64,000 nucleotides of DNA, taken from positions 33,356,001 through 33,420,000 of the forward strand of contig CM022672.1 of NCBI GenBank assembly GCA_012295275.1. Reading direction: 5' to 3'. Position 1 is the first letter of the stretch; every line of letters starts with the position of its first letter. Under the pieces are notes generated by a model. It saw nothing but the letters and a program-made list of their open reading frames with translations, was not told the DNA's origin and did not search any database. Positions 32,117-53,560 of this stretch are shown here, piece after piece. The stretch comes from Chrysomallon squamiferum (lineage: Eukaryota; Animalia; Mollusca). The position numbers and the translations under genes are program-made.

Positions 32117-33796
32117 ATGTTGGTTTTCGCTGTCCTAACGTTTTCTGCGTTTCTTTACACTTCAGATTCTTTCTGTCTGATGGACAGGTTAAAAATCAAC
32201 ATGACAGGTACGTTAATCATTTCTGTAGTCCGACATTCAAACCAAGGTGTCTTTACAACAAACGTATGTTATTAGTAGTATAGCTTATCTTCTTTGTCTT
32301 CGTTAATTAATTAATATTTATATATATGTCAGCTTGTAAGGAAACTTATGTCTGGTTTTTTTTTTTTTTTTTTTTTTTAGTAAATATCTAGTTAAAACTA
32401 GGGAATTTTATGAATGTGACATTAAAAACCTGGCTGACAGGTGGAAAGAGGACACCGAGAAGAATCATGACTGTAACATATATTTCATATTACCTGTTTT
32501 CAAAAGGGCAGAAACGATAAGGTTGAACATTTACTAAAAGGTGCTGTTTGTATATGTTTACTGATGTCAAAAGAAAGTGAATCTACATTTGTTTATTATT
32601 GTTAAATAAAAAAAAAAGAGAAACCAATGATGATTTTATTTGTTTATTGGCGCTAAAAGGTAATGTTTGTATTTGTTTATTATTCGTAAATGTTATCAGC
32701 TCGTTTTATTAACAATTTAGGCAATTTATATAAATGTATGTGTGTGTGGGTAGTAAAAGATATATATCTATATGTATGTGTGTGTGTATATATATAATAT
32801 ATCCCTCAGCAACAAACACGTACAACACACAGACAGTCAAACACGCACGCACACGCACACACACACACACACACACACAAACAAATGCTATCACTTGTAT
32901 CTAGGACGCGATAAGAAAGAAAAAAGATTAAATATGTTCTTAGGGAGCAAAGATTAACATAGTTTCAGTCATATTATCATAATATGAGAGTGTACTTAAA
33001 TTGGACATTTACTAAATTATTGCTGTTGTTGTAGGTGACGGACAGATGAAAACGTACTGCCAGTTTGACGGTGTTGTGATGTCACTGGGAGATTCTGTTA
33101 AATTCGAGAATAAATGTGTAGAGTGTGAATGTTCATATCATGGACTTTCATGTTGCGGGTATGTATTGTCCTGTATTGGTCAAACAAATAAACTCATTTT
33201 AAATTTCTAAAAACAAATGATGATCAAGATAACGAAGATTATGATGATGACGATGATGATGGTCATGATGATGATTCTTATCATTATTATTATTATTATT
33301 ATTATTATTATTATTATTATTATTATTATTATTATTTATTATTATTATTATTATTTAGTTTTATTATTATTATTATATCTTATGTATTCACTATCACCTC
33401 GAAGATAAACAGGACCAGTCCCATCGTAATGACACTCCCTCTATCAGATGGCAACACCTTCTTGAAAAAAACACACAAAAAAACCAGCCTCCATTCGTTA
33501 TGGTCTTCATATGAAACGTGACCCCTAAAACTACTACTACTACTACTATTATCACCATCATCATCATTATTGTTATTATTATAATAATAATAATAATTAT
33601 TATTATTATTATTATTATTATTGTTGTTGTTGTTGTTGTTGTTGTTGTTGTTATTGTCGATGTACACAGATATGGTATCAGTGCGGGAGTAATTCAACCT
33701 CCAAACGGATGCATCGTCAAAGCAGACGGTTGCAAAGCTCTGCTGGTGAAGGCTGACGATACGTCACGTGACTGCTCGACGGGAGAGTTACTATGA
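32117..33796 (+). CDS. Beta-microseminoprotein (MSMB/PSP94)-like secreted protein, subtype B, intact, 113 aa; exons 32117-32207, 33035-33158, 33670-33796
   Basis: GT-AG introns in phases 1 and 2. Protein MLVFAVLTFSAFLYTSDSFCLMDRLKINMTGDGQMKTYCQFDGVVMSLGDSVKFENKCVECECSYHGLSCCGYGISAGVIQPPNGCIVKADGCKALLVKADDTSRDCSTGELL has a signal peptide and 10 Cys in the C..C..CxxCxC..CC..C..C..C pattern of MSMB. AATAAA at 33842-33847. Confidence 0.9.
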
Positions 33797-36700
33797 AAGT
33801 GAAAGAACTTTTTCGTATCTGTAAAACGAAAGTAAAACTGAAATAAAATATTTTGCTAGCTGAATTTTTTTAACTCATGTAGTCATTTTGTTCAAGCTTA
33901 TTAATATTCAGTCGGGGGGTATGTTTGATCATAGAATTTTTTTAATTTCTTTTTATTATGTCAAGCCAGGATGATTTGACCATATCATTTCACGTTGTAT
34001 ATTCTAATCTTTTTTGTTATAAAAGAAATGATTTCCTAGTTTACAGTTATACTGTTCCTGTATCTGGAATCTGCTGTTGGTGTCTAAAGGTTTGATGTTC
34101 CTTATTTAGTGCTGATAAATGAAGTTTAAGACACACATACATATACTGAGAAACTGCAGGTGACACCTCCTCACCCTTCTGCATACAGAGATGTAGAGAT
34201 ATATATTTTTTTAAATTAATATATTTTTGTGTATTGTAATTTAAATTATACGTGTGTGAATCTCTCCGGTTCGCTACCTTAGCAAACATCTTTCTGATAC
34301 AGTTTATGGTAACTTACGGTATATTTTTCCAAGTTGACTAAGTTAGAAATGTCACATAGGTATAGAAGAATGTTTCTGTTCGTTCTTCTCAGTTTGGACA
34401 TTTAGAATGTGTATAACGTATGAGTTTGTGTCTGTGTTTCAATGATTATATGTGCATATTTACGTATATGTGCTTGTTTGACGTGTATTTTTATGCACAA
34501 TCCATACACACACCGACAGACAAACACATAGACATACACACACACACAGTCATATGAAGTATATATACTTTGCTTATTCTATCACCCATCGGCTTTTCTT
34601 GAATGGTTTGTTGTATAACGATTTATCATCCCATCACGAGTTCCTGCACGAGTGATGTGTCTCTATAGCAATCTATATGTGTTATATATACACATTTCCA
34701 TCTGTCCGTGCGATTTCTGTCTGTTTCTCTATCTGCCTTTCTTTTTCCTTTCTGTCTATCTAGCCGCCTGCATAACTAACTACCTGTCTATAATCTCTAT
34801 CTTTCTGTATGTGTGTCTGAGTATCAATCTTTTTTATTGTTCTTTGTTTCGTTCCTTCTTTTAACTTTTTTCTCATTTGTTTCTTTCTGTCTTGTGTAAG
34901 TGTATATAAATCGATATTTCAGTCTGCATACTGTGTACATGTATGTACTGTATTTGTTTATGACTCAGGGTTCGTTAAATAAAAATAATAATATAAATAC
35001 TACGTAAAGAAACGAAATACTATTTAAAAATAGACATTCAGTAACAGATGTCATTTTATGACTAAATAAATCTAAATAAATTAAAAAATAAATAAATAAA
35101 TAAACACAAACATAGAAATAAAAATTAAACAGAAAAATAAAGAGAAGAAAAATAAGCGTCGATTTTACCCCTGTTTATTTATTTACGTATTCATTCAGTT
35201 AGATAGTTAATAAATTATTAGTATTAACTAAATTTGAGAAAAAAAAAAAAAAAAAAAAAAAAAATCTTACAAAAAAAAAAACAACAACGAATAAATAAAT
35301 AAATAAATAAATAAATAAATAAATAAATAAATAAGAAATAATGATCTAACAAAGAAGCAAATAAATAAACACAGTATATTTAAATTCAGTTATACATTAG
35401 TACCTAGATAACTCGATAGCTAATATGAATCATTTTTAACACCGGTAGCAATAAGAGTTGACTTATAAAAATAAAACTGTCGTGTCGCGATGTGTCAGAC
35501 GACTGACAAATATTATACAACAATGCGTACACCATTTCTCGTATAGGTGACAAACCATTCTGCTGAGGAAAGAGTTCAAGTGTCAGTTGCAAGGGGCGAT
35601 CTGCCATTTCTAAGATAATAGGCCATTTCATGAAAACGTTCGTATCTGCTGTCAGAAAAACTGATGATGTTTATAGAGGCATTATTTCTTTTGATTAAAA
35701 TACAGAGTTTGATAGGTTTTCTTCAACTACATCGTTATGTTAAACATTTTATTAACATAGGTGGTGATAACCCACCAGGCTCCAGGGTAACGGATCCTGT
35801 GGGTCATGATCTCAAACAGTAAAACTACCTAGAAACAATATACATCAAACTTACTACTAAATTGTATGAGAAGACACCTCTCACTTTCTTCCGTATTTTC
35901 TTTTTTATACGACATACACCACTCTAGTCTATCATCAAGTAAAGTAATACCAGTAATTAAGAATCTAACAGTTATCTGTTCGTTTGAAATGCAGTGGCAT
36001 CCAATCAGCCACCTGACCATGGGACACCATAGTAGTCTCCTACAGAAAATGGCTTATTGGTCACCAACTCCACATTCATTATGTTCGCCCAGTGTACCAG
36101 CGAACCATATGGCTGATCGAAGAAAACTGCATTAAGAAGTGAACAGAAATTTCTAACAAAAACCCAACCCTTTACAGCATCTATGAAATATGTGTTATCA
36201 CCTCAATCGATCCCAGTTTCTCCTATCATACCAGATCCCGCTGCAAAATGCTCATGAAAGCAAGTCTAAAGTTTCAAGTTATCTCCGTGACCTCCGTGAT
36301 CATCAAACGGAACCGCTGTCTTCTCCAACCGCCCGCTTCCCGCTTCTCCCTCCATACCCAGAACCAGAGCCTGGACTCAAACCTGATTGAGTTTCTGAGG
36401 ACGTTGGTGAATCCCGAGGAACCAAAGAGAAAAGAGAAACCATTAGGCGGGTCAAATTTCAAAGGTGCTTTAGTTCCTCAAACAAAACTGATCGCTATTT
36501 AATGTAACTTCAAAATTTAAAAACTCGGTTTTGTGTATATTCGTGTAAAAGAACTAATTATTAGCAGATGTTGACAGTCAGAAACAGATTATTTACATAT
36601 TATTACTATCAATACATGTTTAACATCTGTCGTTACTTCATCTTTTCTTTATTTCGTATACAGAGGCTAGATTATCTCAAGAATATACAAATAAAAATTA

Positions 36701-52101: not shown

Positions 52102-52822
52102 TTAATTACAAATAAAATACGTTTGTCTTCGTAAATTAATTAATATTTATATATATGCCAGGATGTAAGGAAACTTATATCTGTATTTTTATTTTTTAAG
52201 AGAATATCTAGTTAAAACAAAGGAATTTTATGAATGTGACATTAAAAACCTGGCTGACAGGTGCAAAGTGGACTCAGAGAAGAATGATGACTGTAACATA
52301 TATTTCATATTACCTGTTTTCAAAAGGGCAGAAACGATAAGGTTGAACGTTTACTAAAAGGTGCTGTTTGTATATGTTTACTGGTGTTAAAAGAAAGTGA
52401 ATCTACATTTGTTTATTATTGTTAAAAAAAAAAAAGAGAAACCAATGTTGATTGTATTTGTTTATTGTTATAAAGTAATGTTTGTATTTGTTTATTATTC
52501 GTAAAGGTTATCGGCTCGTTTTATTAACAATTTAGGCAATTTATATAAATGTATGTGTGTGTGCGTAGTAAAAGATATATATCTATATGTATGTGTGTGT
52601 GTATATATATACATATCCCTTAGCAACAAACACGTACAACACAGAGACAGTCAAACACACACACACACACATATGCTGTCACTTGTATCTAGGACAAGAT
52701 AAGAAAGAAAAAAGATTAAATATGTTCTTAGGGAGCAAAGATTAACATAGTTTCAGTCATATTATCATAATATGAGAGTGTAGTTAAATTGGACATTTAC
52801 TAAATTATTGCTATTGTTGTAG

Positions 52823-53560
52823 GTGACGGACATATTAAACCGTACTGCCAGTTTGACGGTGTTGTGATGTCACCGGGAGATTCTGTTAAATTCGAGAATA
52901 AATGTATAGAGTGTCACTGTTCATATCAGGGACTTTCATGTTGCGGGTATGTACTGTCCTGTATTGGTCAAACAAATAAAATCATTTTAAAGTTCTAAAA
53001 ACAAATGATGATCAAGATAACGAAGATTATGATGATGACGATTATGATGGTCATGATGATGATTCTTATCATTATTATTATTATTATTATTATTCAGTTT
53101 TATTATTATTATAATATTATGTATTTACTATGACCTCGAAGATAAACAGGACCAGTCCCATCGTAATGAAACTCCCTCTATCAGATGGCAACACCTTCTT
53201 GAAAAAGACACACAAAAAACCCAGCCTCCATTCGTTATGGTCTTCATATGAAACGAGACTCCTAAAACTACTACTACTACTACTATTATCACCATCATCA
53301 TCATTATTGTTATTATTATAATTATTATTATTTTTATTATTATTATTATTATTATTATTATTATTATTATTATTATTATTATTATTATTATTGTTGTTGT
53401 TGTTGTTGTTCTTGTTATTGTCGTTGTACACAGATATGGTATCAGAGCGGGAGCAATTCAACCTCCAGACGGATGCATCGTCAAAGCAGACGGTTGCAAA
53501 CCTCTGCTGGTGAAGGCTGACGATACGTCACGTGACTGCTTCACAGGAGAGTTACTATGA
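52823..53560 (+). CDS. MSMB-like subtype B exons 2 and 3 (52823-52946, 53434-53560), open and spliceable but without their own exon 1
   Basis: DGHIKPYCQFDGVVMSPGDSVKFENKCIECHCSYQGLSCCG|YGIRAGAIQPPDGCIVKADGCKPLLVKADDTSRDCFTGELL* with intact AG/GT sites and a downstream AATAAA. Homology to gene 32117 starts at ~52120, within intron 1. May be a pseudogene. Confidence 0.6.

What the first reader, a model, noticed from the sequence alone, without database searches (positions are those of the whole stretch)
33035..53560. Near-exclusive non-synonymous divergence between subtype B copies
Counted by eye, 33035-33796 vs 52823-53560: exon 2 has 8 nucleotide differences in 7 codons, all changing the amino acid (Q>H, M>I, T>P, L>P, V>I, E>H, H>Q). 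Exon 3 has 6 differences in 5 changed codons (S>R, V>A, N>D, A>P, S>F) and only 1 synonymous. All Cys are kept. The residue after the last Cys is S, L, F or W in the four in-frame copies. This suggests diversifying selection on a fixed disulfide scaffold, although the counts are small.
Basis: partly seen in the sequence, partly recalled or inferred. Interest (0 to 1): 0.8.

Follow-up and report, generated by a model that had tools for sequence, protein, structure and literature searches.

The report
Fast-evolving microseminoprotein-like gene cluster

Summary
The counts are exact: 14 non-synonymous and 1 synonymous change between 33035-33796 and 52823-53560. The genes are PSP94/beta-microseminoprotein (MSMB)-like: signal-like N-terminus, ten Cys with MSMB spacing, and weak but concordant Pfam, Atlas and Foldseek hits. 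The pair alone does not prove selection: omega about 3.7-4.0, p 0.10-0.12; exons 15/251 versus non-coding 66/1737, p=0.12. The 52823 copy has no exon 1 and abuts an inverted paralog exon, a junction also seen in two independent sequencing studies. Only 1 of 11 gene pieces in the window (32117-33796) is demonstrably complete. 'All Cys kept' and the S/L/F/W site are within chance. Pooled over window copies and exon-2 variants from four public runs, the excess holds: 51-53 N versus 5-7 S, p 0.001-0.03. The strongest signal is in the A-type paralogs: 10/25 changes in the mature part of exon 1 versus 15/603 in flanks. Best reading: a birth-and-death MSMB-like cluster with likely diversifying selection on the mature protein, blurred by gene conversion and pseudogene decay. 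Rapid MSMB evolution is already published for primates and snakes; no expression data were obtained.

The parts
32117..32207 (+). B1 exon 1: ATG, hydrophobic signal-peptide-like stretch, first Cys, mature N-terminal segment; phase-1 GT donor. Only B-type exon 1 in the window
   Evidence: (blastn of 32060-32292 finds only itself); signal peptide read by eye, no predictor run
33035..33158 (+). B1 exon 2 (six Cys; N-terminal beta-sheet domain)
33670..33796 (+). B1 exon 3 (three Cys, stop); AATAAA at 33842. With exons 1-2 gives a 113-aa, 10-Cys ORF, all introns GT-AG
52122..54866 (+). B52 duplicate of 32293-35151: 3' part of intron 1, exon 2 (52823-52946), exon 3 (53434-53560); no exon 1
52102..52121 (.). 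Rearrangement junction between inverted A-type exon 3 and the B52 intron-1 remnant
   Evidence: 80-nt contigs 52072-52151 with 0 differences in runs X2 and X7
51775..52101 (-). A52: orphan A-type exon 3 and 3' flank, cut at the exon start, earlier stop (W>stop)
45214..46209 (-). B46: exon 2 (46032-45909), exon 3 (45339-45214) with a 1-nt deletion in the last Cys codon (about 45236); no exon 1
49091..49217 (+). B49: orphan exon 3 ('L' copy), acceptor AG>TG, lying behind A47 exons; AATAAA at 49263
63104..63230 (-). B63: exon 3 ('W' copy), acceptor intact; intron-2 homology stops at 63636, exons 1-2 not in the window, status unknown
47764..48485 (+). A47: exon 1 (47764-47848; ATG and donor intact, mature segment strongly diverged) and exon 2 with a 17-nt frameshifting deletion
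58731..60279 (+). A58: three exons (58731-58815, 59435-59555, 60150-60279) with MSMB Cys spacing; first donor reads TT instead of GT
37461..38280 (-). A38: exons 1 and 2 intact, exon 3 absent (homology to A58 ends at 37060); Pfam PSP94 E=0.005 on exon 2
50962..51775 (+). C50: decayed third paralog, start ATG>ACG, exon 2 frameshifted
60500..61329 (-). C61: decayed third paralog, exon 1 intact, exon 2 with stop and no clear acceptor

Best explanation
The region is a rearranged tandem cluster of beta-microseminoprotein (PSP94/MSMB)-like genes with one demonstrably complete copy (32117-33796), whose excess of amino-acid changes likely reflects diversifying selection on the mature secreted protein during repeated duplication and loss. 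Shown: three paralog types, duplications and inversions, broken copies, ten-Cys scaffold, non-synonymous excess when pooled. Inferred: the product is a secreted protein of about 10 kDa with five disulfides; new copies arise by segmental duplication; while active, their exposed residues are selected to change binding specificity for a partner; most then die by truncation, splice loss or frameshift; exon-sized gene conversion mixes the copies. The 52823 copy is likely such a dead fragment that preserves earlier adaptive changes. The partner is untested. By family analogy I favour recognition in reproductive or egg-coat secretions (about 0.5) over mucosal defence (about 0.3).
For: Family: Cys gaps 19,19,3,2,7,1,15,7,14 in B1 and 15,20,3,2,7,1,15,8,14 in A58 against 10,18,3,2,7,1,14,9,14 counted by me from the chicken MSMB3 sequence printed in PMC8167871. 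Pfam PSP94 E=0.016 and 0.005 on A exon 2. Atlas top hit a PSP94 cluster, 0.83. Exon-3 model: 4 of 4 Foldseek rows are MSMB-family chains. Exon-2 model (pLDDT 84) matches chicken MSMB3 at TMq 0.71, rmsd 1.5. Selection: eight window comparisons omega 3.0-3.3, p=0.008-0.015; A type p=0.012-0.017; decayed C type omega about 1. 19 of 20 exon-2 variants listed in four runs are non-synonymous. Pooled 51-53 N: 5-7 S, p=0.001-0.03. A58 vs A47 exon 1: 10/25 in the mature part, 2/60 in the signal part, 15/603 non-coding, p=3e-9. B1 branch in exon 2: 7/124 vs 12/623 non-coding, p=0.026. Decay; junction seen in two studies.
Against: Without that pair the support weakens: p=0.038-0.057 by likelihood, p=0.007-0.12 by counts. 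B type without the pair, 17 N: 2 S, p=0.10-0.16; the 13 new read variants alone, 12 N: 1 S, p=0.12-0.21. Over both exons neither the B1 branch (8/250, p=0.32) nor the B52 branch (7/250, p=0.62) exceeds non-coding rates. The comparisons share branches and were chosen after seeing the data. Exon and intron trees disagree, so conversion from a diverged paralog could explain clustered differences, the A exon-1 hot spot included. All family hits are below formal cut-offs (Pfam GA 22 bits not reached; Foldseek E>0.08; Atlas <0.9), and in the exon-2 fold search MSMB3 ranks 21st behind mucin, VWF, VWC and fibronectin modules. No RNA evidence that any copy is expressed.
Confidence: 0.65

Rival explanations
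1. Neutral decay plus small numbers: nearly all copies are pseudogenes, about three quarters of neutral exon changes are non-synonymous anyway, and the reader picked an extreme pair.
For: 10 of 11 gene pieces are broken or incomplete in the window. Neutral synonymous share is only 0.23-0.26. Pair p about 0.1. Exon divergence 15/251 is not above introns alone (expected 11.6, p=0.25). Cys losses occur: Cys>Tyr at 33131, deletion in the last Cys codon of B46.
Against: Neutral decay predicts omega about 1, as seen for the C type, but A and B give about 3 or more. It does not predict 10/25 changes confined to the mature part of A exon 1 beside 2.5% flanks.
Confidence: 0.2
2. Exon-sized gene conversion or recombination with more diverged paralogs elsewhere in the genome creates the clusters of differences; selection need not be positive.
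For: Exon 2 groups B46 with B52 (7 B1-unique sites) while exon 3 groups B46 with B1 (6 B52-unique sites); non-coding sites are star-like. B46 exons are less diverged than its flanks, 2/250 vs 27/623, p=0.006. The four runs hold further exon-2 haplotypes not in the window.
Against: Tracts copied from an old paralog under purifying or neutral evolution should carry synonymous differences; almost none are seen. Conversion moves the question to the donor, whose own divergence would still be non-synonymous.
Confidence: 0.12
3. The duplicated, scrambled copies are an assembly artefact (haplotypes or mis-joins), so the differences are alleles or errors.
For: The region is repeat-rich (29% masked) with many inversions; no whole genome was available to check.
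Against: The 52102-52121 junction is carried by contigs with 0 differences in two studies. B52-type and B1-type exon-2 letters both occur in independent runs. Non-coding divergence of 3.8% with indels is far above sequencing error.
Confidence: 0.03

Closest known systems
Primate MSMB / PSP94, including the duplicated New World monkey genes (PMC2746217, PMC1201370; passages seen)
   Same: Ten-Cys scaffold, tandem segmental duplicates with pseudogenes and partial duplications, coding sequence less conserved than introns; 42% of codons at dN/dS 2.9 in primates, close to the pooled omega of about 3 here.
   Different: Vertebrate MSMB has four exons with the ATG at the end of exon 1; here three coding exons, as in MSMP. 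Four functional, expressed genes in marmoset; here one demonstrably complete gene and no expression data.
[quoted passage not shown]
   Same: PSP94-family tandem array with an inversion, an orphan last-exon pseudogene, and KA/KS above 1 (1.5-1.7) between recent duplicates. SSP-2 appears as a weak hit.
   Different: SSPs are serum proteins that bind venom components and five genes are kept; nothing here indicates such a role, and this cluster is far more fragmented.
Molluscan MSMB-like proteins including Loligo beta-MSP (known here only through PMC3268785, section 10 and passages; the original squid paper was not read)
   Same: Invertebrate MSMB-like secreted protein; protostome members were found mostly in Mollusca.
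   Different: No sequence comparison with Loligo beta-MSP was possible (no homologue returned). Host taxon, tissue and pheromone function are untested.
Single-domain VWC / CirpT-like and fibronectin type I modules
   Same: Same small beta-sheet module as exon 2 (Foldseek ranks 1-20; CirpT4 cluster 0.79).
   Different: The full protein has ten Cys in MSMB spacing, and its exon-3 part hits only MSMB chains.

Membership tests
PSP94 / beta-microseminoprotein (PF05825) | Ten conserved Cys with spacing ...C-x2-C-x-C-x6-CC... | tested here: met
   B1 Cys at 20,39,58,61,63,70,71,86,93,107; core gaps 3,2,7,1 identical to chicken MSMB3 as printed in PMC8167871
PSP94 / beta-microseminoprotein (PF05825) | Pfam gathering score of 22 bits | tested here: inconclusive
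   Only single exons could be submitted: 16.2 and 17.8 bits on A exon 2, no hit on B exons; spliced protein not scanned
PSP94 / beta-microseminoprotein (PF05825) | Small (about 10 kDa) secreted protein with signal peptide | tested here: inconclusive
   113-aa ORF with hydrophobic N-terminus ending just before the first Cys; judged by eye, no signal-peptide predictor or expression data
PSP94 / beta-microseminoprotein (PF05825) | N-terminal beta-sheet (Greek key) domain plus MSMB-specific C-terminal domain | tested here: inconclusive
   Exon-2 model all-beta, pLDDT 84, TMq 0.71 to MSMB3 but also to VWC/FnI; exon-3 model pLDDT 59, 4 of 4 weak hits MSMB family, E 3.6-8.3; full chain not folded
PSP94 / beta-microseminoprotein (PF05825) | Five disulfides in the MSMB pairing | not testable with these tools
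   Needs the purified protein or a full-length model
Gene family under diversifying selection | dN/dS significantly above 1 | tested here: inconclusive
Gene family under diversifying selection | Mature-coding divergence above flanking non-coding divergence | tested here: inconclusive
   Met for A exon 1 (p=3e-9); for the B pair p=0.12 whole exon and 0.03-0.19 for non-synonymous changes
Gene family under diversifying selection | Compared copies are functional genes | tested here: not met
   B52 lacks exon 1; B46, B49, A38, A47, A52, A58, C50, C61 are broken; B63 unknown
Single-domain VWC / CirpT-like | Best profile and fold match over the whole protein | tested here: not met
   PSP94 ranks above VWC2L in Pfam and above CirpT4 in the Atlas; exon 3 hits MSMB only

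The most novel reading that the evidence does not exclude
The cluster is an active, copy-number-variable recognition locus in an invertebrate: MSMB-like secreted proteins diversified by strong positive selection and by exon shuffling between paralog types, with different individuals carrying different repertoires (B1's own exon-2 letters are the minority in four other samples). In the boldest form the exon-1-less 52823 copy is not dead: the intact, phase-compatible, hypervariable A-type exon 1 at 47764 would splice to its exons 2-3 to give a chimeric ten-Cys protein. Against that stand the intact nearer acceptor at 48381 and the AATAAA at 49263.
Probability: 0.12. Interest if true: 0.65.

Novelty: new member of a known kind. 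Interest (0 to 1): 0.33.

Why it matters
Rapid, selection-driven divergence of duplicated MSMB genes is documented in primates and snakes. My searches (open-access library only) returned no study of such a cluster in an invertebrate, so this would extend the pattern to the group in which a squid member acts as an egg-capsule signal. It gives a testable candidate for a species- or mate-recognition or defence protein. It is also a caution: near-exclusive non-synonymous divergence between two copies at 15 changes is compatible with neutrality, and here one copy is a fragment.

Tried and rejected
No whole genome is held for this window, so paralogs outside it could not be listed. Protein homologue searches with single exons found nothing: exon 2 among longer proteins, the exon-2 alignment (25 candidates, 0 at E<=10), phmmer on 1.84 billion representatives (0 hits); 40-aa queries are weak, so this is not evidence of novelty. 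PDB sequence search: exon-2 profile 10 rows at E 0.08-5.6, SSP-2 third; exon-3 profile 0 rows. Pfam on B exons: no hit. The wide structural search never ran and the Atlas search of exon 3 did not complete. Summed contig depths were not used as copy numbers. Intron flanks were not used as a density control because the table drops variants near contig ends. Rejected as evidence of selection: Cys sparing (P=0.22 pair; P=0.13 family) and the four-state S/L/F/W site (P=0.11; the codon also contains a CpG). One search used an exon-3 count of 11 N and an A exon 2 three bases too long; both were corrected, and the pooled figures quoted are. PAML M7/M8 was not run: no PAML is listed for the script machine, and 3-5 mosaic copies would not support it. 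Earlier-findings look-ups returned nothing. No supplements were read.
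Full report
1. Observation. Exon 2 (33035-33158 vs 52823-52946) differs at 8 of 124 nt in 7 codons, all non-synonymous. Exon 3 (33670-33796 vs 53434-53560) differs at 7 of 127 nt: 6 non-synonymous in 5 codons and 1 synonymous. The residue after the last Cys is S, F, L, W in the four in-frame exon-3 copies.

2. What the gene is. An exon 1 at 32117-32207 completes a three-exon, GT-AG, 113-aa ORF (B1) with a hydrophobic N-terminus and ten Cys. The Cys gaps are 19,19,3,2,7,1,15,7,14. I counted 10,18,3,2,7,1,14,9,14 from the chicken MSMB3 sequence printed in PMC8167871 (passages). 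Only single exons could be sent to the search tools, and all hits are weak but concordant. Pfam PSP94 scores E=0.016 and 0.005 on the exon 2 of the A-type paralog, below the 22-bit cut-off, with no hit on B exons. The Atlas ranks a PSP94 cluster first at 0.83, a lead only. The exon-2 model (pLDDT 84) matches chicken MSMB3 at TMq 0.71 and rmsd 1.5, though ranked 21st behind mucin, VWF, VWC and fibronectin modules. The low-confidence exon-3 model (pLDDT 59) returns 4 rows, all MSMB-family chains. I put PSP94/MSMB membership at about 0.9. The host is an animal with 30% GC, microsatellite-rich DNA; a mollusc is likely only because protostome MSMB-like genes were found mostly there (PMC3268785, section 10).

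3. The cluster. Self-comparison shows 32-64 kb to be a patchwork of direct and inverted duplications holding 11 gene pieces of three types. B type: one exon 1, three exon 2, five exon 3. Only B1 is demonstrably complete. Contigs spanning 52072-52151 with 0 differences occur in runs X2 and X7, from two studies; each reaches 30 letters into both flanking repeats. Other contigs in X1 and X7 continue at 52122 into sequence like B1's intron 1, so copies with a longer intron 1 also exist there. B46 lacks exon 1 and has a 1-nt deletion in its last Cys codon. The 'L' exon 3 (49091) has acceptor AG>TG. The 'W' exon 3 (63230) loses intron-2 homology at 63636; its upstream exons may lie beyond the window. 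A58 has three exons but TT at its first donor, A38 lacks exon 3, A47 has a 17-nt deletion in exon 2, A52 is an orphan exon 3, and both C copies are decayed.

4. Is the pair's excess real? Not on its own. About 23-26% of neutral changes here would be synonymous, so 1 of 15 has P=0.08-0.12. Pairwise codon likelihood gives omega 3.7-4.0, p=0.10-0.12. Exons differ at 15/251 against 66/1737 masked non-coding sites, p=0.12. A first uncorrected test of non-synonymous sites gave p about 0.007. After correcting for base composition and for the uncertainty of the control, the ratio is 1.4-1.8 with one-sided p of 0.034, 0.080, 0.106, 0.075 and 0.189 for five choices of control. Cys sparing (P=0.22) and the four-state codon (P=0.11) are within chance, and a Cys>Tyr variant occurs in 3 of 4 runs.

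5. Wider evidence. Laying four public DNA runs on exon 2 listed 21 variant rows, 20 in the exon; 19 are non-synonymous. Thirteen are new relative to the pair (12 N, 1 S; P=0.12-0.21 alone). The table is incomplete (it omits the T>P site), and contigs cannot tell alleles from paralogs or live from dead copies. B1's own letters at 33045 and 33086 are absent or a minority in all four runs, though pieces matching B1 over the 3' part of exon 2 occur in X1 (0 differences) and X2 (1 difference). Likelihood over eight window comparisons gives omega 3.0-3.3 (p=0.008-0.015), A type alone p=0.012-0.017, B type alone p=0.042-0.057, and the decayed C type omega about 1. These comparisons share branches and are post hoc.

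6. Mosaicism. Among B1, B46 and B52, exon 2 has 7 B1-unique sites and exon 3 has 6 B52-unique sites, while non-coding sites give 12, 27 and 13 unique sites of 623. B46's exons are closer to the others than its flanks (2/250 vs 27/623, p=0.006). The B1 branch is long in exon 2 (7/124 vs 12/623, p=0.026) but not over both exons (p=0.32). Exon-sized conversion is the likely cause (inference).

7. How it likely works. Shown: structure of the cluster, decay of most copies, pooled non-synonymous excess. Inferred: B1 encodes a secreted five-disulfide protein; duplicates are selected for new surface residues while active, then die; B52 is a remnant carrying earlier changes. The partner is unknown. MSMB relatives bind CRISP proteins and occur in seminal fluid (PMC2746217), chicken egg white (PMC8167871) and squid egg capsules (as cited in PMC3268785), so recognition in reproductive secretions is my first guess and defence the second. 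Confidence 0.65; neutral decay 0.2; conversion alone 0.12; artefact 0.03.

8. Comparison and novelty. Positive selection on MSMB is published for primates (42% of codons at dN/dS 2.9; PMC1201370, passages), for marmoset duplicates with pseudogenes (PMC2746217, passages), and for the habu SSP array with an inversion and an orphan last exon (PMC6609765, passages). Searches for an invertebrate cluster study (listings only) showed none in the open-access library; subscription papers and supplements were not seen. Verdict: a new member of a known kind, observation confirmed, interpretation partly supported, interest 0.33.

Noticed in passing
window 58731-58815 (+) vs 47764-47848 (+): A-type exon 1: 10 of 25 nt differ in the mature-coding part, 2 of 60 in the signal part, 15 of 603 in flanks; the clearest accelerated-evolution signal in the window.
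   Followed up: yes
window 47764-49217 (+): Chimeric unit: A-type exons 1-2 joined through intron 2 (about 48817-48939) to a B-type exon 3; both the exon-2 frame and the exon-3 acceptor are broken.
   Followed up: partly
window 48817-52101 (+) and 60150-63492 (-): 3.3-kb inverted duplication whose breakpoint falls at the first base of A-type exon 3.
   Followed up: partly
window 34205-34395, 43622 onward, 53909-54113: Stubs of the C-type upstream region and exon-1 start follow B copies, suggesting an older B-C tandem unit.
   Followed up: no
window 9843-11438 (-) and 8515-9354 (-): Long open frames of a sacsin-like gene; Pfam SACS E=3e-13 on the first. The second runs into the N gap at 8312-8511.
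   Followed up: partly
window 237-605 (-): 122-aa ORF with a signal-like N-terminus and basic cleavage and amidation-like sites; looks like a neuropeptide precursor (label recalled, no Pfam hit).
   Followed up: no
window 5211-8309; 17458-21278; 1682-2533: 18-bp satellite of 177 copies ending at the assembly gap; three AACT arrays inside a roughly 1.5-kb triplicated unit; a 385-bp exact tandem duplicate.
   Followed up: no
window 63637-64000: Sequence interrupting B63 intron 2; the frame 63625-63975 (+) resembles a Tc1/mariner transposase fragment by eye (recalled motif), but Pfam gave no hit.
   Followed up: partly
window 33094, 33118, 33121, 33131, 33143: Exon-2 repertoires differ between the four samples: V/I/L at 33118, E/K/Q at 33121, Cys>Tyr at 33131; suggests copy or allele variation between individuals.
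   Followed up: partly
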